This document shows, one piece after another, positions 2,043 to 23,970 of a stretch of DNA of 64,000 bases. The DNA comes from Patescibacteria group bacterium (lineage in GTDB: Bacteria > Patescibacteriota > Patescibacteriia > UBA9934 > CAMTUG01). The stretch spans positions 1,663 through 65,662 of the forward strand of contig JBBTQF010000012.1 of assembly GCA_038065815.1 (NCBI GenBank), written 5' to 3'. The notes beneath the pieces were generated by a model that had not been told where the DNA came from, did not search any database, and was given only the letters and a program-made list of their open reading frames with translations. A program made the translations under genes and the position numbers. Every line of letters starts with the position of its first letter. Positions within the stretch are counted from its first letter, which is position 1.

Positions 2043-2050
2043 AAGGTAAA

Positions 2051-2764: not shown

Positions 2765-2770
2765 AAGTTG

Positions 2771-3202
2771 CTACTCTTCTGGTTGATACACTCCTCCAGT
2801 ATTCACAATCAGCGATAATTCCTGCAACCGACTGCTTGTCACCGGTTCTCTTGTCGCAACAACCGCGACAGGAGCAACAGCATCGCCTTTCAAGTATGGC
2901 TTAAGCTCCGCGTCTGTAAGCTTTTTGTCCCACACCCGAAGTAATGGTTTGCGAAAAGTCTGAATCATATTTAACACGAAAAAGTGAAACGGCTGGCCGT
3001 TGATACGAATGAAGGCAAATGTGACGCCAATCAGAAAAATTGGCACACCGAACAAGAGAAACTTCCAAAAGGTGAGCAATGAGTACAGAAGCGTATCCGT
3101 CAATCCCATCGCCAGCACAATAAGAAATTGTCGCACCGAAAGTGGTCCGAGAATCTTGTCCTCGATATCAATAAATTGCGGAACCGTGAATTGCTGTACC
3201 AT
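2771..3202 (-). CDS. Small two-TM membrane protein, VirB3/PrgI-like, located upstream of VirB4.
   Basis: The 143 aa contain two hydrophobic helices (LIVLAMGLTDTLLYSLL and LLFGVPIFLIGVTFAFI). A 6-nt gap separates it from the VirB4-N ORF, the canonical VirB3-VirB4 arrangement. Confidence 0.45.
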   Translation of the reverse strand: MVQQFTVPQFIDIEDKILGPLSVRQFLIVLAMGLTDTLLYSLLTFWKFLLFGVPIFLIGVTFAFIRINGQPFHFFVLNMIQTFRKPLLRVWDKKLTDAELKPYLKGDAVAPVAVVATREPVTSSRLQELSLIVNTGGVYQPEE

Positions 3203-3225
3203 GAAGAAAATGTCTATCTATTATA

Positions 3226-4668: not shown

Positions 4669-4674
4669 AATAAA

Positions 4675-7518: not shown

Positions 7519-7613
7519 GCAGATTGTAACACGATTTGAGACGTTTGAACGGGCAGAGGTGGGGATAGAAACTTATAAGAGCGGGGCGGTCAGTGTGACC
7601 GCCCCGCGAAACG

Positions 7614-9380
7614 TTAAGGCACCTCGAAATATGCATCGCCACCGATGGAGCACGGATCGGTCGCCCAAACCGACGCGCTCCACGGGTCGGTATCAACCGT
7701 CACGGAAACACCGTCCACCTCAACCGTGCCACGCATGTCGATCGAGAGGCAATCGTTGTTGTATGCGGCCCAGTAGACGTCACCGCTAGAGCTCGTCTGG
7801 TACCACGCGTTGAGTTTGATCTCCTCGCCACTTTCCGCCTCTACCGACACACACATCGCGGTATCGCCGTTGTCGGCATCGTCCGCAACAGGCGAACCCC
7901 AGTAAGTGAAGGTGTTGCCGTCAAGGTAGAGGTTGCCGTCGTACATGGTGACGCCCGGCAAGTAGCAGACCTCCACGGTCGTGTCCTCGTAGGTCACAAC
8001 CTCGTCCGTCTCACTAGTATCGAGCTCTTCTTCCTCGTCGTCGGGCTCGTCCGACTCCTCCTCATCAGCACTGCCGGTATCGAATTCCTCTTCCTCGTTC
8101 TCCGCTTCTCCACCGGTATCCTCTTTCTCGTTCGGGAGTTCCTCGTCGTCATACGTATCGCCGGTATCGAGCTCGTCGGTGTCGTTGCGCTCATCGTCGT
8201 CATCGTTCTCCGCTCCGCCAATGCCAGCGACGCTACCGCCACAAGTCTCGATCATCTCCGCGTCAATGCAACCGTAGTCCGACGAACAACTACCCATCGG
8301 CAGTCCCGTGTCCGCGATCGTCCCGTCGCCAACCGTGACGATGTAGCGCGAACTGAACCCGAGCCGCAGGAAGATATCCCACGTCTCAATCGGCAGGGCC
8401 ATGCCATCGCTCACGACGTACAGGTCGGAACGGCTCGCCTCTTTCACGATGTCGCCATCGCGGAAGTACGCATTGTCCACGCGCCAGCTGACGTCACTTG
8501 TCTCGTCAATCGCCTCGCCGACGTCCATGCAGTCAAGCTCGTCAGGGGAGATGAGCACGACCTCGCTGAAATCGTAGCCGAGGTCCCAGAATACGTCCTC
8601 GCTCTCGATCCAACGGCGCTCACCGTCCTCCACGAGGTAGACGTTGTTGTCGTCCGGGGTCTTCACGAGCGTACCGTTCGGATGCCAGTTCGTGACTGGC
8701 AAAAGCGACCTGTAGGTTTCACCAGCGCCATCAAGCCCGCAGACGAAATCCTCACTTTCGAGCACGAGCTCGGACTCACCAGTACTCACGTTGTCCACGA
8801 AGTAGCCGACCTCGATCGACTCTCCGTATTCGGCCATGAGGCGTCCGTCGCCCTCGTGCAGACCGATATGCACATGGTCACCACTGCACTTGCCAGTACA
8901 ACCCTCGTAACCGAGAATCTGACCCGCCGCGACCTCAAACCCATCGCTCACGAAGATGTCGGACATGTGCGCGAGAACGACGTAGGTGCCGTCACCGAGC
9001 ACGATGTTGACGTGGTAGCCGAAGTTGAGGCTCGCTGACTCCATGTGGACGTAGGCCGTTCCGCCAATCGGCGCGTACACGATGTCGGACTCACCGTTTG
9101 GGGTGTCGAAGTCCAGATCAAGCTCCGTGCTGTCGCCAGCGTGCGAGTAGGTGTCGAAAGGCCCCTGCGTGCAGAGCGTCTTGTAACCGTCATGAAACGG
9201 CAGGTCAATGACGACTCCATCATAGCCACCCTGATCTGTGGACGAGCCGGGGTTTTCGAGCGACTCGATGAACTCTCTGTAGAGTGGATCCATCATCAAA
9301 CATCCGACCATGCCTGATGCGAAGATGAAGGTGATGATGGGAACTGCGTAGAGACGCAATTGGAACTCTTTGTGACTCAC
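7614..9380 (-). CDS. Membrane-anchored M23 (LytM) family peptidoglycan peptidase with a poly-acidic linker and a C-terminal domain. It is the cell-wall hydrolase of the T4SS-like cluster and a VirB1 analogue.
   Basis: The M23 motifs HxxxD (HAGDSTELDLD) and HxH (GDHVHIGLHEG) are present. An N-terminal signal-anchor is present. An acidic run of about 80 aa reads DDDDERNDTDELDTGDTYDDEELPNEKED...EEEEFDTGSADEEESDEPDDEEEELD. Confidence 0.7.
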   Translation of the reverse strand: MSHKEFQLRLYAVPIITFIFASGMVGCLMMDPLYREFIESLENPGSSTDQGGYDGVVIDLPFHDGYKTLCTQGPFDTYSHAGDSTELDLDFDTPNGESDIVYAPIGGTAYVHMESASLNFGYHVNIVLGDGTYVVLAHMSDIFVSDGFEVAAGQILGYEGCTGKCSGDHVHIGLHEGDGRLMAEYGESIEVGYFVDNVSTGESELVLESEDFVCGLDGAGETYRSLLPVTNWHPNGTLVKTPDDNNVYLVEDGERRWIESEDVFWDLGYDFSEVVLISPDELDCMDVGEAIDETSDVSWRVDNAYFRDGDIVKEASRSDLYVVSDGMALPIETWDIFLRLGFSSRYIVTVGDGTIADTGLPMGSCSSDYGCIDAEMIETCGGSVAGIGGAENDDDDERNDTDELDTGDTYDDEELPNEKEDTGGEAENEEEEFDTGSADEEESDEPDDEEEELDTSETDEVVTYEDTTVEVCYLPGVTMYDGNLYLDGNTFTYWGSPVADDADNGDTAMCVSVEAESGEEIKLNAWYQTSSSGDVYWAAYNNDCLSIDMRGTVEVDGVSVTVDTDPWSASVWATDPCSIGGDAYFEVP

Positions 9381-9900: not shown

Positions 9901-9911
9901 TCCTGAGGGCG

Positions 9912-10265
9912 CTATACACGAGCGCCCTCTTCTACTTTTTGGTAGACAGATGCAAAATATTTTTTTAGATTATTTTGAGTCAATACGTTCATGACTTCGT
10001 CGATCGGGAACCAGCATATTTTGTCCTCATAATGTTCCGTTCGTGTTTGCGCGTCCATTTTTGCTTCAACAAGGTACATGTTGAGTTCAACGGGCTCCTG
10101 CTTGTCATTTTTATAACTAAATAAAGGCAACACCGTTTTTATTTTTCCCTCTATCCCTGTCTCTTCCAAAAGTTCTCGCTTCATAGCTTCTTCTGTCGTT
10201 TCGCTGGATTCGATTTGCCCCTTGGGAAAACTCCAGTCGTTTTGTTGACGGTCAATGCCCGGGGT
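9912..10265 (-). pseudogene. 5'-truncated NUDIX hydrolase remnant.
   Basis: The Nudix box G-x5-E-x7-REUxEExGU reads GQIESSETTEEAMKRELLEETGI. It is intact only when the frame is extended upstream of the annotated ATG. That open frame hits a TAG at 10266-10268, only about 8 codons before the box, whereas normal NUDIX proteins have 30-40 aa there. A REP copy lies 40 nt further upstream. Confidence 0.45.
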
Positions 10266-10308
10266 CTATGATTTGGTACTTTCTGAACAACTTTTGTGCT
10301 CAAAAAAT

Positions 10309-10335
10309 CACACATCACAGGCCTGACCCTGTCAC
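10309..10335 (-). repeat. REP-like repeat copy (CACATCACAGGCCTGACCCTGTC).
   Basis: It is the reverse-orientation copy of the GGGGTCAGGCCTGTGATGTG family. Confidence 0.5.
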
Positions 10336-10364
10336 TACAATTACCATGTCGGCAATGGTGTCTG

Positions 10365-11201
10365 CTACGAGCGACGCACGGAGCGGGCGACGGCCATGAA
10401 GTCAGCAATTTTTTGCGCGTCATATCGACGGGCGGCGACCACGATATTTGGACCAAGACGTTTGCTCAGGTCGACATCGCCCTCTTTGAAAGCGGTACCG
10501 ACAATTGTCGCGTCAAGGTACGGTGCAAACCGAGTGAAGTTCTCCGCGGTCATGCCGCTTCCCGTGAGCACGGCCGCGTCACCCGCCTCACGCACTGCCT
10601 CCGCACATTGTTCCACTGATGGAGGGTCACCGGTCCACTGCCCCGTGACAATAACACCATCCGCGCCAGACGCAGACGCCTCGCGCACAGACTCAACGAA
10701 TGGTCGCGGCGTGAGCATCGTCGCATGCTTCACCTGTACGTCCGCGAGAATTGCCACGCCCTCCGCGCCAAGCGCCGCGCGGGCGGCGAGCACAGCCGCT
10801 GGGTTGGCATAAAACTTCCCGTAGACCGTCTCGACAGAATCAACAAACACTGGCACGCGCACCATCACGCCGCCAAGCTTTTTGCATGCTTCGAACCCGA
10901 ACGCAAAATCGTTCCAGAGCGGCGTAATGCCCCAGGAGACATGCGTTTCTGGCACCAACACCTCAAGTAACTCCATGAAATGGGCACGCGTCTCTGGACG
11001 CATCTTCTCGTGCTTAGGCTTATCAAAATTGTTTTCAAAAAGAATGGCATCCACGCCGCCTTTCTGAAGGGCGCGTAGGTCCTGTTGCGCGCGCCCAAGG
11101 ACAACCGCCTTATCGCCCTCATAGTCTTCCGTCCCCTCAAGGGGGGAAAAGTGAATCATGCTGATCACCGCTGGCCGTACCTTCAAGGAGAATTTCTTCA
11201 T
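10365..11201 (-). CDS. BtpA/SgcQ-family TIM-barrel protein.
   Basis: The 278 aa start with an IHFSPLEG N-terminus and carry a GGVDAILFENNFDKP motif typical of the BtpA family. The gene is GC-rich, about 63 %. Confidence 0.5.
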   Translation of the reverse strand: MKKFSLKVRPAVISMIHFSPLEGTEDYEGDKAVVLGRAQQDLRALQKGGVDAILFENNFDKPKHEKMRPETRAHFMELLEVLVPETHVSWGITPLWNDFAFGFEACKKLGGVMVRVPVFVDSVETVYGKFYANPAAVLAARAALGAEGVAILADVQVKHATMLTPRPFVESVREASASGADGVIVTGQWTGDPPSVEQCAEAVREAGDAAVLTGSGMTAENFTRFAPYLDATIVGTAFKEGDVDLSKRLGPNIVVAARRYDAQKIADFMAVARSVRRS

Positions 11202-11261
11202 ATGATGACAGTATAGTATGGAAAAGGGCGCTCCGCGAGGGAGCGCCCGATTGAGTGCGGG

Positions 11262-12707
11262 CTACTGGGCGTTGAAGCGTCCGGAGGCCTTGCAAGTGAG
11301 CTGGACCTGGCTGGCGAGGAAAGCGGACACACGGCCTTCACGGAGCGCCTCGAGACAAATCCATGCGCAGTGCGCGAGTTTCTCGGAGTCCGGACCACGG
11401 CCAGCACGGAAACGCGCCAAATCATCGTCCATCATGCCGTTCGTGAGGTAGAGCGCGAGACCAGCGTTCATGGCGAGGTACTCCACGAGCTGACGGTCGC
11501 GGTCATCACAGCCAAGATGGACAGCAATACGATTGGCCTCCATGATCATGGCTTCTTCGTTGGGCACGAAGACGCTCATGGGGTCGCGGAACATAAGGCC
11601 AAAGCTCGCGGGCGTGAGCACCACGTTGGCGAGAAACTCGTCGCGCGCAGTGAAAGACATGAGCGAGGCAAAGGGCGAGAGCTCATCGAGCACGGCGAGG
11701 TCGCGGATGTGGCGGCTGTTGATCGCCTCATGCGCGTCGATGTGCTGGCTGAGGCCGCATACCACCGCGACGTTGCCGACGTTGTAGACGCCGTCCGCGT
11801 GCAGACGAGCGTAGGCGCGAGCAATTGTCTCCGGGTGCATCTTCTCGTTGACGCCGATCACCTTGTCCAAACGCGTGGCCGGGGACACGGGTGGCGTCAT
11901 GGGGCCGATGACGTGGTTGACGGTCTCACGGCGCGGCAGCAGGTGCGACAGGTCATGGATCGTCTTCCATGCGTGGGCGTCCGTGAAGTGGAAGCCGCTC
12001 ATCGCGAGCTCCTCCTGGACATCCCTCTTGGGGATGTCCACGATCACGCCCAGATTCTCGATCGCCTCCGTGGAGCCGACAGCCGAGGTGTTGCTGTACG
12101 AGCCGTGCTTGGCCGTGCGGTGGCCGAGGCTCGCGACCGTGAGGGCCGAGAGCGTGGAGCAGTTGATGGTCTTGCGGCGCACCGGGTCGCCGTTGACCAT
12201 CATCCCGCGGTCGCCACCCATGCCGCAGGTCTCGAGGACGCGTGGGCCGTAGTCCGGGAAGTGGATGATGTCCATCTGCGCGGCGGTCACCATACCAGCG
12301 ACCTCGTCCGGCGTAAGCTCGGCCCATGCCTCCTTCATGGCGAGGCCGGAGAGCATCTCGCGGGCGGCCATGCAGTCGCCGTCAGGACCCAGCGAGGCAT
12401 CCTTGAGGCAGTGGAACCGACGCTCGAGGTGGCCGTTGCTAGCGCGAAGAATGTAGCAGGTGGCAGCGAAGGCCTCCTGGAAGGTGAGGTGGCCACCGAG
12501 GGACGCCTTCACGAGCTGGCTGTAGCCGAACTCGCTCAGACAGCCAATGAGGCTGAGCTGCTTCGCGTTGGGCTGGCAGGGGTCATAGAGCGCCTCGCGC
12601 ATGGGGATCTTGGCCAGATAGCGCGCGCGGGCAGCCGCGAACTCAGGGCCGTGCATCCCCTGAACGAGATTGATCTTGCTGAGGGGCCTGCTGGCATGGT
12701 CGTTCAT
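11262..12707 (-). CDS. TrpD-family (glycosyltransferase family 3; anthranilate PRTase / nucleoside phosphorylase fold) protein with an N-terminal extension of about 130 aa.
   Basis: The motif CGMGGDRG...TINCSTLSALTVASLGHRTAKHGSYSNTSAVGSTEAIENLGV matches the TrpD GTGGD/KHGN region. It is 481 aa, about 65 % GC, with an AGGAGA Shine-Dalgarno 5 nt before the ATG. Confidence 0.6.
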   Translation of the reverse strand: MNDHASRPLSKINLVQGMHGPEFAAARARYLAKIPMREALYDPCQPNAKQLSLIGCLSEFGYSQLVKASLGGHLTFQEAFAATCYILRASNGHLERRFHCLKDASLGPDGDCMAAREMLSGLAMKEAWAELTPDEVAGMVTAAQMDIIHFPDYGPRVLETCGMGGDRGMMVNGDPVRRKTINCSTLSALTVASLGHRTAKHGSYSNTSAVGSTEAIENLGVIVDIPKRDVQEELAMSGFHFTDAHAWKTIHDLSHLLPRRETVNHVIGPMTPPVSPATRLDKVIGVNEKMHPETIARAYARLHADGVYNVGNVAVVCGLSQHIDAHEAINSRHIRDLAVLDELSPFASLMSFTARDEFLANVVLTPASFGLMFRDPMSVFVPNEEAMIMEANRIAVHLGCDDRDRQLVEYLAMNAGLALYLTNGMMDDDLARFRAGRGPDSEKLAHCAWICLEALREGRVSAFLASQVQLTCKASGRFNAQ

Positions 12708-13099
12708 GATGTCTCCTGGGGGCGTGAAAAGGAACGGTCGATCTGAGGCTTCCTAAACATAAAAGCCCCATCATCGCAAGCCTATGGGAATATAGGCTCA
12801 AGAGGACGGAGCTTCTCCGTGGTGCCACCTCTGATTATCCTCACGCGCGCCAAAACGCGCTTTGAGAAACTTTACGCACTCCGTGGATATGCGTTAGCCC
12901 TTGGTTACGGGGGCGTCCGGTCGGCCACAATAGCAGCCGACGTCTCACCGGGTCCAATTTCACGATCGCACCAGACAGGGCTCACACTATCTCCTGTTCG
13001 CTTTGCTGGCTCACGCTCGCTACTAACTCCCGGATCAATGACGTTGTCGATGAGAAGGAACTAAATTAACGATAGCAGGTCGAAAAAATCGTGTCAAAT

Positions 13100-13810
13100 C
13101 TATGCCTTGTTCTCGAGGAATTGGCATGTTTGTTCCAAAGCTACGGCAATAGCGGTTTCTAGACTATCACCAAGAATTATTCTTGCCACTGTGTGCGCAA
13201 AAAATGTGTCGCCTGCTCCAATCGTATCCTTCGTAGAGACAACGCGCGGTGGCTGAAACGACATGTGTCTTCCTTCTGTGTAAGCGTCGACCCCATTAGC
13301 CCCCTTTGTCACCAATAAAATACGCGTTTTTTGATCTTCAACACTTTCAGCTGGAATAAATGAAAGCTCCAGCTCGGTTGCTTTTAAGCACCGCACGTTT
13401 TTTATCCAATCTCCTTCAAATTCCTTCCAGAGTCGTTTCTGACCCGGAATATTTGGTGCACGGACAAAACCTTGAACATCCAGGTACAGCTCGTTGCATG
13501 TTTCAAAAACAGCAACTGGATCCCATTCACGGGACAGTGTTGATATAAGGGCTGATCCGCTTTTGCAGACAGGTACATTTTTATTCTGTGCAACTGGAGT
13601 GACACTACCAATCTCGCCTTGTTCGTTCACTTCGATACATACTTCAACAACTGGACCGACATGACAATGCTCCTCTATGCCCTGCATTTTCATAACGGCA
13701 GAAATAAACGTCGCCGGCCCCCCGATACGTTCGGAGGTTTTCCCCTGTTTATGGTCAATAACAACATCGTGAGCTACTGTTGAATACACGTCAATCGATG
13801 GTTGATTCAT
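13100..13810 (-). CDS. PfkB-family carbohydrate/nucleoside kinase (ribokinase-like), short form.
   Basis: PfkB signature-2 is DTIGAGDTFFAHTV and the length is 236 aa. Confidence 0.6.
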   Translation of the reverse strand: MNQPSIDVYSTVAHDVVIDHKQGKTSERIGGPATFISAVMKMQGIEEHCHVGPVVEVCIEVNEQGEIGSVTPVAQNKNVPVCKSGSALISTLSREWDPVAVFETCNELYLDVQGFVRAPNIPGQKRLWKEFEGDWIKNVRCLKATELELSFIPAESVEDQKTRILLVTKGANGVDAYTEGRHMSFQPPRVVSTKDTIGAGDTFFAHTVARIILGDSLETAIAVALEQTCQFLENKA

Positions 13811-13852
13811 AGGAAGAAATGAAGAGGGGAGCCGAGGGGCTCCCTTTTAAGT

Positions 13853-14662
13853 TCAGAGTTCTCCGCGAAGGATGCGCTCCAAGATGTCAACGACGCCCGT
13901 GGTGTAGTAACCGACGGAAACATAATCGGCACGTCCCTTGTAGTCTGCGTCAGCATTGCCAACCGCCGCATGCGTGACGCCCTTGCCGCAGTAATCGACC
14001 AGCGCATTGCCGATCATGACGATCCGGGAGTCGGGCACATGTATGCGCACGCAGTCCGTGCCCAGTCGCTTGGACGCCTCGGCCGCATGAATGGCGAGCA
14101 CCCCGTGCTGAAAGTTGGTCAGGACCCTGAGCTGGCTACGTTCGGACTTGGACTTGATCCAGGACTCCGCGCGTTCGAGAAGTGTGGTGTCCGGGATCAG
14201 TTCGCCTTTTTCTCCCGTATACCAGCAAAATCCGAGACAACTTGACCGCCGGCGAGTGTTGACCCCGATGATGCGGCGGCCAGTTTCTCCGAACCGTGCG
14301 ACGAGTCGATTTTCGACAACGTCGCCGAGCCAGATGTCTGCCGATTCCGCATCGGCGAGTCCAACCAGATCGTAGCGCAGGTGGTAAAGAAACTTCCGAA
14401 GCTCTTCACCAACTGCATACACAGGTTCTGCGCCCGGGCTGATAGAAACGACGGTGCCGAGCTCGGCAACGGTCGGTCCATCCATTCCAAGTCGTAGCTG
14501 AATGTCTGTGAGCGACCGCAGAGGAGAGTCCGAGTGGAGACCGATGCGGACCCCTTGCTTGCGTGCCCTCTGCACCACTTCGTTGATGCGCGAATCCGTG
14601 GTCTGCTCGGTGCAGACGTCCACCAGTGTTTCGTCTTTGTCGATGAGAACGAGCGTATTCAA
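13853..14662 (-). CDS. HAD-superfamily hydrolase, subfamily IIB (Cof-like phosphatase).
   Basis: HAD motif I is LIDKDETL (DxDxT-like). The C-terminal MIGNALVDY...AVGNA matches the HAD-IIB motif IV region. Confidence 0.5.
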   Translation of the reverse strand: MNTLVLIDKDETLVDVCTEQTTDSRINEVVQRARKQGVRIGLHSDSPLRSLTDIQLRLGMDGPTVAELGTVVSISPGAEPVYAVGEELRKFLYHLRYDLVGLADAESADIWLGDVVENRLVARFGETGRRIIGVNTRRRSSCLGFCWYTGEKGELIPDTTLLERAESWIKSKSERSQLRVLTNFQHGVLAIHAAEASKRLGTDCVRIHVPDSRIVMIGNALVDYCGKGVTHAAVGNADADYKGRADYVSVGYYTTGVVDILERILRGEL

Positions 14663-14718
14663 AGTACCTCTGAATGTGCAAAAGAATCTTAGAACACAAG
14701 AACCGTATTTGTCAAAGA

Positions 14719-15507
14719 CTAGTCCTGCTCCAAAACAGTTTTTCGCACGAGCTCAACTAGGCGCTCATGAAGTACACCATTTGAAGCAATGTGTCCGTGA
14801 ATAGGGCGATCGTAGCGTTGCTCATTTCCATAAACATCCGTCACTCGTCCACCCGCCTCTTCAATGATAATTTTTAACGCGGCACTATCGTGTGGCCTAT
14901 CACCAGGAAAAAGCGTAGCAACAAACTCGCCGCTTGCCACAAGCGCAGCCATGTAGGCAATAGAAGCAACGACCATAATCTTTGCCTGCTCGTTGCGCAA
15001 AAACTCTGTCATTACAGAAAAATTAAATGGTGCGGATTTCCAATAAACGATGCCGAACAACGACTGCTTAAATGTATCGCTCTGAGAAACCTGAATCGTT
15101 TTACCATTCAAAGAAGCACCTTTGCCCTTTTCTGCAACATATATACGATCCATAAACGGATCGTAAATGACACCGAGAACACTTTCACCTTTGTGCGTTA
15201 AGGCAAGTGAAAACGTGCACAACGGAATACCATGAGAAAAAGGTACGGTTCCATCTAGTGGATCACAGACCCATACGAACTCACTCTGCTCACTAAACGC
15301 GTCACCTTCTTCAGCAAGAACACTATGATCTGGAAAAGTGTTCTTTACTGCATCAATAACCATCTGGTTTATCAAAAGGTCTGATTCTGTAAGAGGAGTC
15401 GCATCAGACTTCCACTCTTTCTTCATGCCCAACATAAAGTTGCGCCGAATAACTTCACCGGCGGCGTGGGCGAGATCAACAGCAAATTGTTGATAATCAG
15501 ATGACAT
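14719..15507 (-). CDS. Inositol-monophosphatase family (IMPase/SuhB-like) phosphatase.
   Basis: The WVCDPLDGT motif matches the W-x-DP-x-DGT signature, and the metal-binding EE region is present. The length is 262 aa. Confidence 0.65.
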   Translation of the reverse strand: MSSDYQQFAVDLAHAAGEVIRRNFMLGMKKEWKSDATPLTESDLLINQMVIDAVKNTFPDHSVLAEEGDAFSEQSEFVWVCDPLDGTVPFSHGIPLCTFSLALTHKGESVLGVIYDPFMDRIYVAEKGKGASLNGKTIQVSQSDTFKQSLFGIVYWKSAPFNFSVMTEFLRNEQAKIMVVASIAYMAALVASGEFVATLFPGDRPHDSAALKIIIEEAGGRVTDVYGNEQRYDRPIHGHIASNGVLHERLVELVRKTVLEQD

Positions 15508-15544
15508 ATGTATGCAAATGGGCGGATGAGATCCGCCCGAGAAT

Positions 15545-16453
15545 CTAGGTCAAAAGTTTCATGCAACGACGGGCGTAGAACGCAGACCGCGTAGCGAACA
15601 TTCTCCCTTGTTTTGGATAGGGTTCACGACGGAAACGAGCGGAGAGCGCGCACTGGAGAGACCGACCCAGACTGAAGGCTGCCTCAAGATGTGCAGGCGA
15701 GCCTCCAAGTATCTGAGGCAATTGTTCGACCGCGAAGGTATGGAGGAGACGATACCCGCTGTTTGCCCCGGGTAAACGGTAGGCGTCGCGACATACGCCA
15801 GCGAAACAAGCGAGATCGATCGCAGGACATCCGAGGTTATCTCGAATTGGATCGACTTTTTTCACCCCACCATCCGTGAGAAAAAGATCGTCCGGTTTGA
15901 ACTCGAACGTGGAGAAGCAGGAACACATCCCCCCAAACATCTCGAACTCTGCTGCGCGAAAACGAGATACGAGGTTGGGTGGAATAAGATCTGCAAGGTA
16001 CCCTGCCCACTGTTCAACGACGAGGTCGCGCATGGCGCGAATGGCTGGAACAGGCGACTCTGTACTTAGACTCGCGCGATAGATGGGATCCATCGCAAGA
16101 AGTAGACGAGAGAAGCATTCCACAGGACGAGCCGCCGTCCTTGCGACATCTATGAAGTTCACGCCGCAATCCTCCATCAGGAGACACGGAACGCCCCGCA
16201 CTTGATGAAGGTCGAGCGTATTCGGAAGAAGACCACCAGCACCAATGCGGCGAAGGTTGATGTACCCCTCCCAGTTTGCTTCGACTTCTTTCTGAGCGAG
16301 CTCACCGTAGCCAATCTTTACGACCAGCGAACGACCATCCTGACGAACACGGTAGACCGTCTTGCAATTCTCCACGATGACGATCTGGTCACGAAACTCG
16401 AGATGTAGCGCTTCAGCAACAGAACCAAGAAGTACGTGAAGGTCCATGAGCAC
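15545..16453 (-). CDS. Protein-kinase-like / aminoglycoside-phosphotransferase-like fold protein (putative small-molecule kinase).
   Basis: Among the 302 aa, FEFKPDDLFLTDGG...DPIRDNL resembles the APH catalytic-loop/Brenner region. This is a weak assignment. Confidence 0.3.
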   Translation of the reverse strand: MLMDLHVLLGSVAEALHLEFRDQIVIVENCKTVYRVRQDGRSLVVKIGYGELAQKEVEANWEGYINLRRIGAGGLLPNTLDLHQVRGVPCLLMEDCGVNFIDVARTAARPVECFSRLLLAMDPIYRASLSTESPVPAIRAMRDLVVEQWAGYLADLIPPNLVSRFRAAEFEMFGGMCSCFSTFEFKPDDLFLTDGGVKKVDPIRDNLGCPAIDLACFAGVCRDAYRLPGANSGYRLLHTFAVEQLPQILGGSPAHLEAAFSLGRSLQCALSARFRREPYPKQGRMFATRSAFYARRCMKLLT

Positions 16454-16568
16454 TCCGAATGAACTGCATCTATCGTATCATAACTTTTTTTCTCGTCAAT
16501 GCTCGTCGAACCAAAACCATAGACATTTTTCTACACACCCGCTAGAGTACGTACGTTCCCAGAAACAA

Positions 16569-16595
16569 ATGGGGTCAGGTCTGGGATGTGGGATT
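16569..16595 (+). repeat. REP-like repeat copy (GGGGTCAGGTCTGGGATGTGGGA). It is the left half of an inverted REP doublet.
   Basis: It forms a roughly 22-bp inverted repeat with 16625..16652 across a 32-bp spacer. Confidence 0.55.
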
Positions 16596-16624
16596 TATTG
16601 AGTACAAAAGTTATTCAGAAAATA

Positions 16625-16652
16625 CCACATCACAGGCCTGACCCCATCCGCG
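16625..16652 (-). repeat. REP-like repeat copy (CCACATCACAGGCCTGACCCCATCC). It is the right half of the inverted doublet.
   Basis: See 16569..16595. Confidence 0.55.
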
Positions 16653-16725
16653 CCATCCGCGGCGCGGCGCGGTGTACGGTGTAGATCATCTGCGCGTATT
16701 TTGATACCGTACTAGCATAACATCT

Positions 16726-17388
16726 ATGTATCTAATTGTCCTTTACGGCCCGCCGGCTGTTGGAAAATTCACGGTCGCCCAGCGACTGCAAAAGCAGACA
16801 AATTTTGCGGTTCTGCACAATCATGCGATCGCCGATTTGGCGTCTGCCATTTTTCCGTTTGGGTCAAAAGGATACGGGCCGCTAGCGGAACGCCTACGAC
16901 TGGAATGCATCGACGGCGCTATACGCGCCAAGCTCCCCGGTCTGATCATGACCTTTACATTTGGAGTCGAAACCGCTGGCGGCAAACGTGACGCCAGGGT
17001 ATTGAAAACTATTACGAACCGCGTGAAGAATGCCGGAGGCCGCGTTTCGTTTGTCCGACTTACGTGCGATCACGCGGAACTTTTCAAACGAGTGCGGCAC
17101 GCGGATCGAAAACGATTTCAGAAATTGACGAGCTCGTCTCTTTTGAGACGACTATTAAAGACCTATCATCTCGAAGAAGATATCGCGTTCACCGAGAGTC
17201 TTTCGATTGATACGACGCATCTGTCTCCCGCCCAGACGGCACGGCGGATTATGCAGATTGATCTTTCGTGGCAAAGAACAAGACCGGTCGTTCCCCAAGG
17301 GTATGACAAGGCTAAATCTGTAGACGTACGAAACACTATCAAACCAGCCAGCCGTGGAACGTTGTCCGAGGCCGGTCGAATGCAATAA
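16726..17388 (+). CDS. P-loop NTPase / small-molecule kinase-like protein (AAA_33-like) with a degenerate Walker A (GPPAVGKF).
   Basis: The N-terminus reads LIVLYGPPAVGKFTVAQRL. It is 220 aa and bounded by REP copies on both sides. Confidence 0.4.
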   Translation: MYLIVLYGPPAVGKFTVAQRLQKQTNFAVLHNHAIADLASAIFPFGSKGYGPLAERLRLECIDGAIRAKLPGLIMTFTFGVETAGGKRDARVLKTITNRVKNAGGRVSFVRLTCDHAELFKRVRHADRKRFQKLTSSSLLRRLLKTYHLEEDIAFTESLSIDTTHLSPAQTARRIMQIDLSWQRTRPVVPQGYDKAKSVDVRNTIKPASRGTLSEAGRMQ

Positions 17389-17421: not shown

Positions 17422-17691
17422 CTAGGAACGATAGACATCATGATCACCTACCGTCAACAAGACAGCCTGATCTTTGTTTAGGTACATAAATACAATCCGC
17501 GTCGCGTAGTTCACGGAAAAACTGTATCTCCCCTGCAATCTCCCTTCCAACTTGTGCACGCGTAATCGTTCATGAGTAGCCGGATTTTGAAAATCGGTGA
17601 TTGCCCGCTTTACTTCTTCCTGAAGAAGCGGCGTAAATTTTTTATACGCGCGAACAAACCTTGCCGCGTAAGAAACCTCCAACATAGCCAA
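17422..17691 (-). CDS. Type II toxin, RelE/ParE family.
   Basis: The 89 aa contain HKLEGRLQGRYSFSVNYATRIVFMYLNKDQAVLLTVGDHDVY, which matches the RelE/ParE fold signature region. It directly follows the antitoxin ORF, stop abutting start. Confidence 0.6.
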   Translation of the reverse strand: MAMLEVSYAARFVRAYKKFTPLLQEEVKRAITDFQNPATHERLRVHKLEGRLQGRYSFSVNYATRIVFMYLNKDQAVLLTVGDHDVYRS

Positions 17692-17910
17692 CTATAAACT
17701 AGCCGCTAGGGCATCTAGGTCTCCGCGCAAAATCTTCCCTTCTTTTACCTCTTGCTCAGCGGCCAATACCTCAAACACGGCCTGATCTTCTATGTATTGC
17801 ACAATAGCCTTGCGAACGAATCCCGCTTTGGAATCAGCAATACCGCTTTTGACCATTTGATCAATGCTTAATTCAATTGCGGGGGTTAATGGGACAGACA
17901 ATGTAGACAT
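17692..17910 (-). CDS. Type II antitoxin (ribbon-helix-helix / ParD-like). The likely true start is MSTLSVPL at 17910; the listed ORF extends to 17982.
   Basis: It is a small acidic protein immediately upstream of the RelE/ParE toxin, and its stop abuts the toxin start. An operator palindrome lies in its promoter. Confidence 0.5.
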   Translation of the reverse strand: MSTLSVPLTPAIELSIDQMVKSGIADSKAGFVRKAIVQYIEDQAVFEVLAAEQEVKEGKILRGDLDALAASL

Positions 17911-17952
17911 AATCAGATGAATATATTTCAATATTAAATTATCATACATCTT

Positions 17953-17980
17953 TTGACCTGTCAACTTCAGGTGTCGACAC
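17953..17980 (-). promoter_or_regulatory. Promoter and operator of the TA operon. The palindrome TTGACCTGTCAA overlaps a -35 (TTGACA), there is a 17-nt spacer to the -10 TAATTT, and the 10-bp palindrome GTGTCGACAC lies adjacent.
   Basis: Read on the minus strand it is TTGACAggtcaaaagatgtatgaTAATTT about 25 nt before the antitoxin ATG. Confidence 0.4.
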
Positions 17981-18040
17981 AAGATAACTTTCTTAAAATG
18001 ACATTTTGGCTAAAGTTAGCCACTTCTTTAGACAAATCCA

Positions 18041-23036: not shown

Positions 23037-23970
23037 GGATGGGGTCAGGCCTGTGATCTGTGATGAGATAGCTTGGCTATGCGACAAACAGTAGTTCCTG
23101 CCAAGCCCAAAAACTTTGCTACTGCTTTCCCGGAATACTCAAAATAATTAAGTGCCAGCGCGATCGCCGCATCACGCTCCTGTTGAGTCGCAACTCCATC
23201 AAACAAAACTTTCAATGTTGGCCTACCGTCCATCCTTTGTGCGGCAACAATCTCATCTGCTGAGACACTCATATCAACTCGATCGCGCACTTCATGAATG
23301 AACTGCTCCGATCCTAAAATTCCACCCTTGCCAACAGCATCAAAAGGCGACGTACGCCCGATGCCGTCTTGAATAAAACTTCGATATGCTTTCTCCCTGC
23401 CTTGTTTACGATTGCTAAAATGTCCCAATGCATCCTTCTTCGCCAACCAATCTGGCGCCACCTCCAGACCAGCCAAGGCTCGATAGCTGCTCCATTGATA
23501 ATCCGACGGGTCATCAACCATTTTTGCCCGCACAGGATTAAGCACCACATAACGAATAACCTCGAGAAGATATTCCTGCTCCTCAACCAAAAAAGCCTTA
23601 AATCGCCCTTGAAATAAGTGGCCGACGTGTTTGTGTTTGGCGTTGTACCATTGCGTGTAAGTCGCGTTAAGATTTTGCATTCCTTTGGACAACGTGGGAT
23701 CGATCGTCTCAATAACAAAATGATAGTGATTGCCCATCAAACAATAACTGTAGCAACGCCAATTAAACTTTTTCAGTACTGACGAAAAAATGAAAAGAAA
23801 CTGTTCGCGATCTTGATCGGAAAGAAAAATTGAACTCCTTGCGTTGCCGCGAGTAGTGATGTGATAAAAAGCACCTGGAAATTCGATGCGTAGAGGGCGC
23901 ATTAATGTATGGTATCACACATCACAGACCTGACCCCATCATTCTCATCCCACCGACCCCATCCCTGTGG
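23037..23970 (-). mobile_element. REP-RAYT-REP unit: a REP-associated tyrosine transposase gene flanked by inverted REP copies.
   Basis: The forward REP is 23041-23067 (GGGGTCAGGCCTGTGATCTGTGATGAG) and the reverse REP is 23916-23970. The Y1 HuH transposase lies between them. Its stop codon TGA is supplied by the REP itself. Confidence 0.65.
23045..23902 (-). CDS. rayT: REP-associated tyrosine transposase (RAYT; IS200/IS605-like Y1 HuH transposase, PF01797-like).
   Basis: The N-terminal FYHITTRGN, the HuH motif GNHYHFVIE, and the catalytic-Tyr region YVVLNPVRAKMV...YQWSSYRA match the widespread MARPLRIEYPGAVYHVTSRGN...DNHYHLL...NPVRAGMV transposase family. Confidence 0.7.
   Translation of the reverse strand: MRPLRIEFPGAFYHITTRGNARSSIFLSDQDREQFLFIFSSVLKKFNWRCYSYCLMGNHYHFVIETIDPTLSKGMQNLNATYTQWYNAKHKHVGHLFQGRFKAFLVEEQEYLLEVIRYVVLNPVRAKMVDDPSDYQWSSYRALAGLEVAPDWLAKKDALGHFSNRKQGREKAYRSFIQDGIGRTSPFDAVGKGGILGSEQFIHEVRDRVDMSVSADEIVAAQRMDGRPTLKVLFDGVATQQERDAAIALALNYFEYSGKAVAKFLGLAGTTVCRIAKLSHHRSQA

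What the first reader, a model, noticed from the sequence alone, without database searches (positions are those of the whole stretch)
10365..17388. An island of phosphotransfer and nucleoside-type enzymes suggesting an uncharacterised small-molecule pathway.
The co-oriented genes are an APH-like kinase, an IMPase-family phosphatase, a HAD-IIB phosphatase and a PfkB kinase. A 390-nt gap follows, then a TrpD-family phosphoribosyltransferase/nucleoside-phosphorylase-like enzyme with a 130-aa N-terminal extension and a BtpA/SgcQ TIM barrel. A P-loop kinase lies across a REP doublet. This mix of kinases, phosphatases, a PRTase-like enzyme and a TIM barrel is not a textbook operon. It resembles salvage or modification of a phosphorylated sugar, cyclitol or nucleoside. 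The TrpD-like and BtpA genes have foreign GC.
Basis: inference. Interest (0 to 1): 0.6.

Follow-up and report, generated by a model that had tools for sequence, protein, structure and literature searches.

The report
Tryptophan-sensing switch controlling TrpD-like/BtpA operon
The "390-nt gap" is a riboswitch that senses uncharged tryptophan tRNA and controls a two-gene operon (a divergent TrpD-type phosphoribosyltransferase plus a BtpA barrel enzyme), which appears to be the ultra-small bacteria's own version of two early tryptophan-synthesis steps and gives the long-unexplained BtpA family a testable function.

Summary
The genes are present as described, in a Patescibacteria (CPR) MAG, but they are not one pathway island. 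The 392-nt "gap" is a T-box leader (Rfam E 3e-16) with a UGG (Trp) specifier, a UGGC bulge matching the G73 discriminator of tRNA-Trp, and an intrinsic terminator. It controls the operon TrpD-like → BtpA.

Across 66 dereplicated related loci, BtpA follows the TrpD-like gene in 47/57. A T-box motif precedes it in 32/60. trpS lies nearby in 31/45, and a tRNA-Trp gene in 16/32.

In locus L086 the pair is merged with bona fide trpC-trpB-trpA. That locus has no trpF, canonical trpD or trpE/G.

The TrpD-like protein keeps every PRPP/Mg motif of anthranilate phosphoribosyltransferase, but its acceptor pocket is remodelled. BtpA is a phosphate-binding TIM barrel with an enzyme-like set of invariant residues.

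Best reading: a Trp-starvation-induced TrpD/TrpF-equivalent module converting scavenged anthranilate + PRPP to CdRP.

The short PfkB, HAD-IIB and APH-like genes recur as accessories whose role is unresolved. The IMPase and P-loop genes are unlinked neighbours.

No paper describing this was found in five full-text searches.

The parts
13069..13097 (-). Promoter-like site (TTGACA-17 nt-TATCGT with an extended TG) immediately after the PfkB stop codon. Presumed start of the T-box transcript.
   Evidence: Consensus scan; sequence. It is a pattern match only, not evidence of function.
12755..13047 (-). tRNA-Trp-sensing T-box leader. Stem I has an AGUA/GAA S-turn. The specifier UGG is at 12956-12954, followed by A12953 and the closing helix CCCGG. 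The T-box motif AGAGGUGGCACCACGG is at 12832-12817, with the UGGC bulge at 12827-12824. The terminator AGCUCCGUC...GAUGGGGCU + UUUUAUGUUU lies at about 12813-12755.
   Evidence: Rfam RF00230, 73.9 bits, E 3e-16 (E 4e-14 over the whole window), full model 1-219. Orthologous leader L006 scores 94.3, above the gathering score of 93. Specifier reading.
11262..12707 (-). TrpD-like phosphoribosyltransferase, 481 aa (RBS AGGAGA at 12717-12712). It has the AnPRT fold with ~60 extra N-terminal residues and an insertion of ~30 aa. PRPP/Mg motifs are kept: GMGGD 162-166, N182xST, K200HG, G211S, D341E342. The acceptor pocket is remodelled: S203, S254, H251, D252, H255, E261, N264, H265.
   Evidence: Pfam and NCBIfam. 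Family alignment A1. AF2 model with pLDDT 92.7. The top 50 Foldseek PDB hits are all AnPRT. Residue mapping to S. solfataricus AnPRT. Family is separated from canonical TrpD.
11226..11248 (-). GC-rich hairpin followed by a T-run between the TrpD-like stop and the BtpA start. A sister copy lies at 9907-9927, downstream of BtpA.
   Evidence: 2 matches against 0.01 expected. Function not tested.
10365..11201 (-). BtpA/SgcQ-family (βα)8 barrel, 278 aa (the public gene call starts at 11159, giving 264 aa). Invariant residues: H17, E56, N57, N97, D98, R115, D154, K158, H159, D181, G214-S-G216, K239.
13100..13810 (-). Short PfkB-family kinase, 236 aa, with the DTIGAGD motif and no lid. It is a recurrent accessory of the module and sits inside the T-box operon in some genomes.
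   Evidence: best PDB hit is the 273-aa myo-inositol 3-kinase TK2285, E 1e-7. Occurs in 14/45 loci. In-operon in L024, L028 and L060.
13853..14662 (-). HAD-IIB (Cof-type) phosphatase, 269 aa. Recurrent accessory, usually paired with the APH-like gene.
   Evidence: Occurs in 7/45 loci. L007 has the same HAD-IIB-PfkB-[T-box-TrpD-like-BtpA] order as the window.
14719..15507 (-). IMPase-family phosphatase, 262 aa (best NCBIfam match is HisN, at 153 bits against a cut-off of 275). A neighbour only; not linked to the module elsewhere.
   Evidence: Occurs in 0/45 related loci.
15545..16453 (-). 302-aa protein of a small family with kinase-like motifs (VVKIG; FKPDDLF; DP..N.G.P.IDLA). Occasional accessory.
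   Evidence: No profile hit. Homologues in L016, L023 and several metagenome loci, 6/45 in all.
16569..16647 (.). Imperfect palindrome (36-nt arms) made of a repeated 21-mer. It separates the divergent APH-like and P-loop genes.
   Evidence: third copy at 23917-23937.
16726..17388 (+). P-loop NTPase, 220 aa, with weak AAA_18/AAA_33 matches. It is divergently transcribed and is not part of the module.
   Evidence: Occurs in 0/45 related loci.

Best explanation
Window 13097→10365 (minus strand) is one regulatory and metabolic unit. It comprises a promoter, a transcription-attenuating T-box riboswitch and a two-gene operon.

The T-box reads the anticodon (specifier UGG) and the free 3' end (UGGC bulge) of uncharged tRNA-Trp. 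When tryptophan is scarce, the leader lets RNA polymerase read through into the operon.

Gene 1 is a divergent member of the anthranilate-phosphoribosyltransferase (TrpD) fold. It most likely transfers the 5-phosphoribosyl group of Mg-PRPP to a scavenged aromatic amine, with anthranilate the default candidate.

Gene 2, BtpA, is a phosphate-binding TIM barrel. It most likely performs the next step, an Amadori-type isomerisation of the N-(5-phosphoribosyl)amine to the 1-deoxyribulose-5-phosphate form (CdRP). That would make it a non-orthologous stand-in for TrpF.

The product would feed trpC-trpB-trpA, which in CPR genomes form a separate minimal operon that also carries a Trp T-box.

Status of each step:
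- Shown: T-box identity and Trp specificity; conservation of the gene pair; its synteny with trpS and tRNA-Trp; its fusion with trpCBA in one locus; retention of the PRPP/Mg motifs.
- Inferred: the acceptor substrate, the BtpA reaction, and the presence of trpCBA elsewhere in this particular genome.

The upstream short PfkB kinase, HAD-IIB phosphatase and APH-like protein are recurrent but optional accessories. Their role is unresolved: it could be ribose/PRPP supply, or handling of dephosphorylated intermediates. The IMPase and the P-loop protein are bystanders.
For: T-box identity and specificity:
- Rfam E 3e-16, full-length match, and the only T-box in the 64 kb.
- Orthologue L006 scores above the gathering threshold.
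- The T-box 12-mer lies ≤1 kb upstream on the same strand in 32/60 dereplicated loci, against roughly 2 expected by chance (my estimate from the motif's information content, not a tool result).
- UGG followed by a purine directly before the closing helix is the only triplet shared by the leaders read by eye. A UGG-purine falls in the expected zone in 34/35 leaders. L086 and L105 show the canonical GAA-UGG-A register.
- The bulge UGGC/UGGU fits the G73 of the neighbouring tRNA-Trp genes.

Genomic linkage:
- BtpA lies downstream in 47/57 loci.
- TrpRS, confirmed by TIGR00233 at 254 bits against a cut-off of 177, is present in 31/45 loci.
- A tRNA-Trp gene lies in 16/32 loci.
- TrpD-like::HAD and BtpA::HAD fusions exist.

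Link to the trp pathway:
- L086 reads T-box → LMW-phosphatase → TrpD-like → TrpC (283 bits, cut-off 260) → TrpB (627, cut-off 392) → TrpA (294, cut-off 102) → BtpA → HAD. No PRAI match, canonical TrpD or TrpE/G was found among the ORFs scanned in the 21 kb.
- In L105 both trpCBA and an operon ending in BtpA-HAD carry Trp T-boxes.
- CPR trpC loci without canonical trpD/E/G also show no PRAI gene (L102, L103, L105-L107). The one locus with PRAI (L104) has the full canonical set.

Proteins:
- The top 50 structural matches are all AnPRT, with TM 0.75-0.85.
- GTGGD, NxST, KHG, GS and DE motifs are invariant.
Against: - The two residues that hold the anthranilate carboxylate in known AnPRTs (N109 and R164 of the S. 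solfataricus enzyme) are invariant Ser here. The pocket has gained His, Asp and Glu residues, so the acceptor may not be anthranilate.
- Only 1-2 of 66 dereplicated loci have trpC/B/A within 10 kb. The Hainich groundwater study found trpA/trpB in only 15-18% of 0.2-µm-fraction Patescibacteria MAGs and in none of the 0.1-µm-fraction MAGs (PMC8672522). Family members occur in both fractions.
- No trp gene other than this pair was found in the 64-kb window. This rests on a whole-window tblastn with a TrpA-like query, trpS and seven non-trp neighbour proteins and on Pfam/NCBIfam scans of nine of the window's ORFs. trpB, trpC, trpE, trpF and trpG were not searched for explicitly.
- Ten loci lack BtpA, and six of these carry a nucleoside hydrolase instead.
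- The HAD, LMW and IMPase-type phosphatases and the kinases have no role in the textbook pathway.
- As far as I know, BtpA also occurs in organisms that have TrpF, such as cyanobacteria (not tested here). Its nearest non-CPR relatives sit in a nucleoside-utilisation operon. The family's chemistry is therefore broader than PRA isomerisation.
Confidence: 0.55

Rival explanations
1. Nucleotide or nucleoside ribose salvage resembling the archaeal pentose-bisphosphate pathways. The TrpD-like protein would act as an NMP/nucleoside (pyro)phosphorylase. The short PfkB would be a ribose-1-phosphate or nucleoside kinase. BtpA would isomerise ribose-1,5-bisphosphate. HAD would dephosphorylate the product so that it enters central carbon metabolism.
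For: - The accessory set is typical of nucleotide metabolism: a HAD-IA closest to pyrimidine 5'-nucleotidase, IU-nucleoside hydrolase, LOG/SLOG and NUDIX.
- The nearest non-CPR BtpAs lie in a conserved operon: nucleoside ABC transporter, isochorismatase, PfkB, uridine-phosphorylase-like, BtpA, Fe-ADH, TrpA-like. This parallels the haloarchaeal route of phosphorylase, PfkB kinase, isomerase, HAD phosphatase, aldolase and glycolaldehyde reductase (PMC9700705).
- From my own knowledge, the archaeal AMP phosphorylase also carries an N-terminal extension. This was not checked here.
Against: - It gives no reason for a Trp-specific T-box, for trpS/tRNA-Trp synteny, or for insertion into trpC-B-A.
- The Mg-PRPP 'DE' motif is invariant.
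- All of the top 50 structural hits are AnPRTs, not NP-II phosphorylases.
- No PYNP_C domain is present.
- No R15P isomerase or RuBisCO turned up in the parts of the loci that were scanned, though neither was searched for explicitly.
Confidence: 0.12
2. The module runs in the releasing direction. It would free tryptophan, or an indole or anthranilate precursor, from a ribosylated or Amadori-type conjugate. A PfkB kinase would phosphorylate the conjugate, and BtpA and the TrpD-like enzyme would then take it apart. In some genomes HAD plus nucleoside hydrolase would provide an alternative route.
For: - T-box logic only requires that the products raise Trp supply.
- BtpA is replaced by a nucleoside hydrolase in 6 of the 10 BtpA-less loci.
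- A BtpA-adjacent PfkB outside CPR resembles fructoselysine-6-kinase, at 129 bits.
- Deacylases (AstE/AspA-like, M20) recur nearby, and M20 is in-operon in L024 and L105.
Against: - No such natural conjugate is known to me.
- On general chemical grounds, the Amadori step is effectively irreversible.
- It does not explain why the pair sits with trpC, which needs CdRP as input.
Confidence: 0.08
3. The TrpD-like enzyme phosphoribosylates a different, non-anthranilate acceptor. Together with BtpA and a phosphatase, it would make a Trp-related but non-proteinogenic product. Alternatively, it could act on tRNA-Trp itself. In either case its Trp-regulon membership would be regulatory rather than biosynthetic.
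For: - The acceptor pocket is remodelled, with invariant S203, S254, H251, D252, H255 and E261.
- Phosphatase fusions suggest the phosphate is removed from the product.
- Most loci have no trpCBA nearby.
- From my own knowledge, the TrpD paralogue TrpD2/YbiB binds nucleic acids. This was not checked here.
Against: - The L086 and L105 operon structure places the pair with trpC/B/A under the same T-box type.
- No RNA-binding features were tested or seen.
Confidence: 0.12
4. One reading: all seven genes form one island for salvage or modification of a phosphorylated sugar, cyclitol or nucleoside, unrelated to any amino acid.
For: - Six of the genes are co-oriented.
- The best PDB hit of the short PfkB is a myo-inositol 3-kinase, and an IMPase gene lies next to it.
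Against: - The IMPase and P-loop genes occur in 0/45 related loci.
- A promoter-like site, the T-box and a terminator split the cluster.
- The PfkB-inositol kinase similarity is weak (35 bits).
- All of the tryptophan links listed for the best explanation count against it.
Confidence: 0.04

Closest known systems
Anthranilate phosphoribosyltransferase (TrpD, EC 2.4.2.18; e.g. PDB 1ZYK, 1ZVW, 5NOE)
   Same: It has the same two-domain fold (TM 0.75-0.85 over the target). It keeps the GTGGD PRPP loop, the NxST, KHG and GS motifs and the DE Mg2+ motif. It occupies the first position of a trp gene string in L086.
   Different: It is 19-25% identical and about 135 aa longer. It scores 96 bits against the 199-bit cut-off of TIGR01245, and no Glycos_trans_3N Pfam match is found. 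The anthranilate-binding N109 and R164 are replaced by Ser, and there is a new invariant His/Asp/Glu cluster. Some members are fused to a HAD phosphatase.
Phosphoribosylanthranilate isomerase TrpF (also PriA and HisA)
   Same: It is a (βα)8 barrel with a C-terminal β7/β8 phosphate-binding site and polar residues at the ends of β1 and β5/β6. In L086 it occupies the only vacant enzymatic slot between TrpD and TrpC.
   Different: There is no detectable sequence homology to PRAI. The catalytic residues differ (His17, Asp154, Lys158, His159 in place of Cys/Asp). BtpA is 60-70 residues longer. The activity is untested.
Trp-specific T-box leaders of Firmicutes (RF00230; trpS and trp operons)
   Same: It has a specifier loop with an S-turn and UGG plus a purine, the T-box sequence with a UGGN bulge, and a terminator/antiterminator design. 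It controls tryptophan-supply genes.
   Different: The host is a Patescibacterium. The regulated genes are a TrpD-like/BtpA pair. Many orthologous leaders in Parcubacteria-type genomes have a drastically shortened Stem I. The window copy scores below Rfam's gathering threshold.
Partial or 'recapture' trp operons of obligate parasites (Chlamydiaceae; recalled from my own knowledge, not read here)
   Same: A reduced-genome symbiont keeps only the part of the pathway that converts a scavenged intermediate into Trp.
   Different: Chlamydiae use canonical TrpD/F/C/B/A and protein repressors. Here two steps appear to be taken by non-canonical proteins and control is by T-box.
BtpA of Synechocystis (photosystem I biogenesis factor) and SgcQ of E. 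coli
   Same: Same Pfam family, PF03437.
   Different: The CPR clade forms its own subgroup (>150 bits against about 120-135 bits for the others). The host is non-photosynthetic and the context is metabolic. To my knowledge no enzymatic activity has been reported for the family.
Non-carboxylating pentose-bisphosphate pathway of haloarchaea (PMC9700705)
   Same: The same enzyme classes co-occur: a ribosyl-cleaving or ribosyl-transferring enzyme, a PfkB kinase and a HAD phosphatase.
   Different: There is no eIF2B-type isomerase and no FucA aldolase. The first enzyme is PRPP-type rather than a phosphorylase, and regulation is by tRNA-Trp.

Membership tests
T-box leader (RF00230) | Covariance-model match over the whole leader | tested here: met
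   73.9 bits, E 3e-16, model positions 1-219 of 219. This is below the curated gathering score of 93, but orthologue L006 scores 94.3.
T-box leader (RF00230) | Specifier loop with an S-turn (AGUA/GAA) and a codon followed by a purine next to the closing helix | tested here: met
   Window reads GAAAU-UGG-A-CCCGG. The same UGG-R occurs in the orthologous leaders read, and L086 and L105 read GAA-UGG-A.
T-box leader (RF00230) | Conserved T-box sequence with a UGGN bulge complementary to the NCCA end of the tRNA | tested here: met
   AGAGGUGGCACCACGG, with bulge UGGC. The neighbouring tRNA-Trp genes have G73.
T-box leader (RF00230) | Mutually exclusive terminator and antiterminator; tRNA-dependent read-through | tested here: inconclusive
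   A terminator helix plus U-tract can be read from the sequence. The alternative pairing and the response to tRNA need experiments.
Anthranilate phosphoribosyltransferase (TrpD) | Glycos_transf_3 α/β domain and the overall AnPRT fold | tested here: met
   PF00591, 77.5 bits. The top 50 Foldseek hits are all AnPRT.
Anthranilate phosphoribosyltransferase (TrpD) | PRPP/Mg2+ binding motifs (GTGGD, NxST, KHG, GS, DE) | tested here: met
   All are invariant in 25 family members.
Anthranilate phosphoribosyltransferase (TrpD) | Anthranilate-binding Asn109 and Arg164 (S. solfataricus numbering) | tested here: not met
   They align to invariant S203 and S254.
Anthranilate phosphoribosyltransferase (TrpD) | Equivalog score of TIGR01245 | tested here: not met
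   95.9 bits against a cut-off of 199. Canonical TrpDs score ≤100 bits against the family profile, whereas members score ≥200.
Anthranilate phosphoribosyltransferase (TrpD) | Catalysis of anthranilate + PRPP → PRA | not testable with these tools
   Needs an enzyme assay or ΔtrpD complementation.
NP-II nucleoside/AMP phosphorylases | Closest fold and sequence to TP/PyNP/AMPpase, with a C-terminal PYNP_C domain | tested here: not met
   No phosphorylase appears among the top 50 structural hits or in the PDB sequence hits, and there is no PYNP_C Pfam match.
BtpA/SgcQ (PF03437) | Pfam gathering score | tested here: met
   146.9 bits against a cut-off of 30. TIGR00259 gives 145.2, just under its cut-off of 153.4.
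Phosphoribosylanthranilate isomerase (functional class) | PRAI sequence family (PF00697) | tested here: not met
   No PRAI hit for BtpA at E ≤ 1. It is proposed only as a functional analogue.
Phosphoribosylanthranilate isomerase (functional class) | PRA → CdRP activity | not testable with these tools
   Inferred from the missing-step argument in L086.
PfkB carbohydrate kinases | Pfam score, the GG and DTxGAGD motifs, and a ~300-aa size with a lid | tested here: inconclusive
   PF00294 gives 40.5 bits (cut-off 25.8), and IGGPA and DTIGAGD are present. However, the protein is 236 aa and only profile positions 217-282 align.
APH/choline-kinase-like phosphotransferases (PF01636) | Profile match and an HxDxxxxN catalytic loop | tested here: not met
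   No hit for the window protein even at E ≤ 10. One homologue hits at E 0.053. The loop reads FKPDDLF.
Inositol monophosphatase family | Pfam PF00459 | tested here: met
   172 bits. No equivalog cut-off is reached.
HAD-IIB (Cof-type) | Hydrolase_3 / TIGR01484 | tested here: inconclusive
   Hydrolase_3 gives 28.1 bits (cut-off 20.9), but TIGR01484 gives 18.7 (cut-off 41.8). The L016 homologue scores 90 bits.

The most novel reading that the evidence does not exclude
BtpA would be a new class of Amadori isomerase that replaces TrpF. The divergent TrpD-like enzyme plus the recurrent kinases and phosphatases (short PfkB, HAD, LMW-PTP) would make, dephosphorylate and re-phosphorylate a ribulosamine intermediate. 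CdR/CdRP or a non-anthranilate analogue would then serve as a transportable currency of a tryptophan pathway split between ultra-small symbionts (CPR and DPANN) and their hosts, all governed by tRNA-Trp T-boxes.
Probability: 0.15. Interest if true: 0.85.

Novelty: new variant of a known kind. Interest (0 to 1): 0.66.

Why it matters
- BtpA (PF03437) has, to my knowledge, had no known biochemistry since it was named. It occurs in cyanobacteria, archaea, Firmicutes and CPR. A concrete and cheaply testable activity, PRA-type isomerisation, would be a real advance.
- CPR and DPANN organisms are generally described as amino-acid auxotrophs. A T-box-governed route that tops up tryptophan from a scavenged precursor would change metabolic reconstructions of these lineages, and would suggest what they take from their hosts.
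- The TrpD-like family shows a remodelled acceptor pocket on an otherwise intact PRPP site.
- The finding also extends the T-box regulon to new genes and to a phylum where many leaders have a minimal Stem I.

Tried and rejected
- I first favoured a pentose-bisphosphate-like nucleoside salvage, on the basis of the accessory enzymes and the non-CPR BtpA operon. I demoted it once the T-box, trpS/tRNA-Trp synteny and the L086 trp operon appeared.
- The inositol/cyclitol idea (PfkB best hit TK2285 plus the IMPase) was dropped because the IMPase is absent from all related loci.
- An unknown 396-aa protein upstream of BtpA in L041 was tested as a hidden TrpD relative by hhalign. The result was negative, with probability 0.2%.
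- Profile search of the APH-like family against the PDB gave only spurious TPR-repeat hits.
- An automated 'codon + purine + 5-bp helix' test for the specifier was too permissive to discriminate: UGG appeared in 29/35 leaders, but other triplets appeared in about 20/35. The specifier call therefore rests on positional reading of the leaders.
- Rfam found no T-box in L005, L009, L011, L016, L018, L020, L023, L026, L028, L031, L034 or L036.
- tblastn found no trpS and no match to a TrpA-like query or seven non-trp neighbour proteins (decarboxylase, deacylase, CM-methyltransferase, hydrolase, HAD-IA, TDO-like, aminotransferase) in the window. trpB and trpC were not queried against the window.
- Five full-text literature searches found no description of this module.

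Full report
**Source and anatomy**

The window is contig CAYHTD010000001.1 of a Patescibacteria MAG (GCA_964359465.1). The same sequence occurs in Hainich groundwater assemblies.

On the minus strand they are:
- a 302-aa protein (16453-15545);
- an IMPase (15507-14719);
- a HAD-IIB phosphatase (14662-13853);
- a short PfkB kinase (13810-13100);
- a 481-aa TrpD-like protein (12707-11262);
- BtpA (11201-10365).

A P-loop protein lies on the plus strand (16726-17388).

Profile searches confirm IMPase, PfkB, TrpD-family and BtpA, and marginally HAD-IIB. The 'APH-like' label has no profile support, and the P-loop match is sub-threshold.

**The gap is a T-box**

Rfam at a permissive threshold finds a full-length T-box leader at 13047-12799 on the coding strand (73.9 bits, E 3e-16). 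It is still the only such hit when the whole 64 kb is scanned (E 4e-14).

Several features can be read directly from the sequence:
- a σ70-like promoter abutting the PfkB stop codon;
- Stem I with the AGUA/GAA S-turn;
- the loop GAAAU-UGG-A closed by CCGGG/CCCGG;
- the T-box sequence AGAGGUGGCACCACGG;
- a terminator helix followed by UUUUAUGUUU;
- an AGGAGA ribosome-binding site 5 nt before the ATG at 12707.

**Conservation of the leader and its specificity**

A genome scan and a metagenome scan with the TrpD-like profile gave 34 + 55 loci, which reduce to 66 after dereplication at 95%.

- The T-box 12-mer lies within 1 kb upstream on the same strand in 32 of the 60 loci that have enough upstream sequence.
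- Rfam independently confirms leaders in L006 (94.3 bits, above the gathering score), L004, L027 and L013.
- In the leaders read by eye, the only triplet conserved next to the purine and closing helix is UGG.
- A UGG-purine falls in the expected zone in 34/35 leaders.
- L086 and L105 show the textbook register GAA-UGG-A.
- The bulge reads UGGC or UGGU, matching the G73 discriminator of the adjacent tRNA-Trp genes.

A tRNA-Trp(CCA) gene lies inside 16 of 32 genome loci. trpS, confirmed above the TIGR00233 cut-off, lies in 31 of 45 loci of at least 8 kb.

**The conserved unit**

BtpA lies just downstream of the TrpD-like gene in 47/57 loci, and on the same strand in 43. The minimal operon is T-box → TrpD-like → BtpA.

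Recurrent extras (n = 45 loci of at least 8 kb):

| Gene | Loci |
|---|---|
| Small HAD-IA phosphatase | 18 |
| Short PfkB | 14 |
| HAD-IIB | 7 |
| APH-like protein | 6 |
| LMW-PTP-type phosphatase between T-box and TrpD-like | 5 |
| IU-nucleoside hydrolase | 5 |

- The HAD-IA count includes TrpD-like::HAD and BtpA::HAD fusions.
- The short PfkB sits inside the operon in L024, L028 and L060.
- The nucleoside hydrolase occurs mostly where BtpA is missing.
- The window's IMPase and P-loop genes never recur (0/45).
- L007 has the window's order, HAD-IIB-PfkB-[T-box-TrpD-like-BtpA].
- L023 carries an archaeal SRP RNA, so the module also exists in a DPANN archaeon. That locus has no T-box.

**The link to tryptophan synthesis**

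L086 reads as follows:
- T-box;
- LMW phosphatase;
- TrpD-like, with the full family signature;
- a small Cys-rich ORF and a terminator;
- TrpC;
- TrpB;
- TrpA;
- BtpA;
- HAD-IA.

TrpC, TrpB and TrpA all score above their equivalog cut-offs. trpS lies opposite. No PRAI match, canonical TrpD or TrpE/G was found among the ORFs scanned in the 21 kb.

Looking outward from CPR trpC genes gives the following neighbourhoods:

| Locus | Gene order |
|---|---|
| L103 | T-box-EamA-small ORF-trpCBA |
| L105 | T-box-small ORF-trpCBA, followed by a second Trp T-box operon ending in M20-BtpA-HAD |
| L102 | trpC-HAD-PfkB-trpB-trpA |
| L106, L107 | trpCBA only |
| L104 | full canonical trpE, G, D, F, C, B, A |

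PRAI appears only where canonical trpD/E/G are also present. The simplest reading is that CPR carry a minimal trpCBA module, and that the TrpD-like/BtpA module supplies its substrate CdRP. The TrpD-like enzyme would stand for TrpD and BtpA for TrpF.

**The proteins**

TrpD-like:
- The model is confident (pLDDT 92.7).
- Its 50 best PDB matches are all AnPRTs.
- Mapping to the S. solfataricus enzyme shows that every PRPP/Mg contact is kept: GTGGD→GMGGD, N89/S91/T92, K106/H107, G117/S118 and D223/E224.
- The acceptor residues are changed: N109→S203, R164→S254, A161→H251, N162→D252, K165→H255, R170→E261, F173→N264 and N174→H265. All of these are invariant.
- The family comprises about 72 clusters at 50% identity with E ≤ 1e-30. 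Members score ≥200 bits, whereas canonical TrpDs score ≤100 bits.

BtpA:
- The model (pLDDT 94.6) is a (βα)8 barrel.
- It has the invariant residues H17, E56/N57, N97/D98, R115, D154/K158/H159 and D181, plus a β7 GSG/β8 phosphate site.
- Its weak secondary Pfam affinities are chiefly to Trp_syntA, NMO, PcrB and His_biosynth.

**What remains open**

- The remodelled pocket means that anthranilate is not proven as the acceptor.
- Most loci have no trpCBA nearby. A published survey found trpA/B in only a minority of groundwater Patescibacteria.
- The phosphatases and kinases have no textbook role. They may feed ribose or PRPP, pull the reaction by removing PPi, or handle dephosphorylated intermediates. 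None of these could be tested.
- The nearest non-CPR BtpAs sit in a conserved nucleoside-utilisation operon with a uridine-phosphorylase-like enzyme, a PfkB, an Fe-ADH and a TrpA-like barrel. The family's chemistry is therefore probably 'isomerise or cleave a 1-substituted ribose-5-phosphate' rather than PRA alone.

**Other checks**

- GC: the TrpD-like gene is 0.642 against a gene mean of 0.503 ± 0.054, but four other genes are at least 0.585, so the window is mosaic throughout.
- The 'REP doublet' is a real repeated 21-mer, with three copies against 0 expected.
- Two similar GC hairpins bracket BtpA.

**Verdict**

The interpretation as one generic phosphosugar, cyclitol or nucleoside island is not. 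The core is a tRNA-Trp-controlled, non-canonical TrpD/TrpF-like module. Five full-text searches found no description of it.

Noticed in passing
L013, L014, L017, L019, L021, L024, L025, L027, L103 (leaders upstream of the TrpD-like gene or of EamA-trpCBA): In Parcubacteria-type genomes the Trp T-box leaders have a drastically shortened Stem I: a mini-hairpin, then U-UGG-G. They lack the distal platform that normally contacts the tRNA elbow, and they score only 35-41 bits, or nothing, with Rfam.
   Followed up: partly
L037-L040, L044-L046: The nearest non-CPR BtpA genes sit in a conserved operon: Bmp/ABC nucleoside transporter, RutB-like isochorismatase, PfkB, uridine-phosphorylase-like, BtpA, Fe-ADH, TrpA-like barrel. 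It looks like an undescribed nucleoside catabolic route.
   Followed up: partly
L102:8001-12679: A Kaiserbacteria trp operon reads trpC-HAD-PfkB-trpB-trpA. A phosphatase and a PfkB kinase are embedded in a minimal trp operon, and they are only distantly related to those of the window.
   Followed up: partly
L086:~11400-11640; L105:7234-7491; L107:291-530: A conserved ~80-aa protein with four Cys (…LHRCPGC…C…C.ERSPLT…) precedes trpC in several CPR loci. It has no family match.
   Followed up: no
L086:9340-9861 and homologues in L048, L052, L054, L061, L066, L089, L096: A low-molecular-weight phosphatase (PF01451, 51 bits) is inserted between the Trp T-box and the TrpD-like gene.
   Followed up: partly
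L023 (= L063): This locus carries an archaeal SRP RNA (109.5 bits). A DPANN archaeon therefore has trpS-decarboxylase-AstE-like-TrpD-like-HAD-BtpA::HAD-APH-like-HAD-IIB-APH-like, which suggests transfer of the module between CPR and DPANN.
   Followed up: partly
L006, L008, L049-L051 (next to BtpA); L103, L106 (next to trpCBA): An EamA/DMT transporter gene recurs beside both Trp modules, and in L103 it lies behind the T-box. It is a candidate importer of the scavenged precursor.
   Followed up: no
L005:5146-6033 and L053: A tryptophan-2,3-dioxygenase-like gene (PF03301, 69 bits) lies between trpS/tRNA-Trp and the TrpD-like/BtpA pair.
   Followed up: no
window 16571-16591, 16625-16645, 23917-23937: A 21-nt element (GGGGTCAGGTCTGGGATGTGG) occurs three times, two of them forming the palindrome between the APH-like and P-loop genes. 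None are expected by chance.
   Followed up: partly
window 9907-9927 and 11226-11248: Two similar GC-rich hairpins (GGGCGCT…AGCGCCC) bracket BtpA and the NUDIX remnant. One sits between the TrpD-like gene and BtpA and is followed by a T-run, so it may be an internal attenuator or an RNA-stabilising element.
   Followed up: no
window 9912-10184 (and ORF 10181-10456): The NUDIX ORF covers only the C-terminal half of the domain (profile positions 49-123). The upstream part seems to lie in another frame, so this is probably a frameshifted or truncated gene.
   Followed up: no
window 17422-17982: Two small adjacent minus-strand ORFs (89 and 96 aa) look like a toxin-antitoxin pair. I judged this by eye from the sequence.
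   Followed up: no
window 120-9380 and 24872-34024: Type-IV-secretion-like genes (PrgI, TraC-like, VirB4/TraG-type ATPase) and an M23 peptidase lie next to the module. A 3050-aa ORF lies further on.
   Followed up: no
L008:8172-9578, L021:3751-4707, L017:8120-9253 and homologues: Three genes recur around the module without an obvious role: an MfnA-like PLP decarboxylase (9/45 loci), an AstE/AspA-like deacylase (10/45) and a chorismate-mutase-domain::methyltransferase fusion (13/45).
   Followed up: partly
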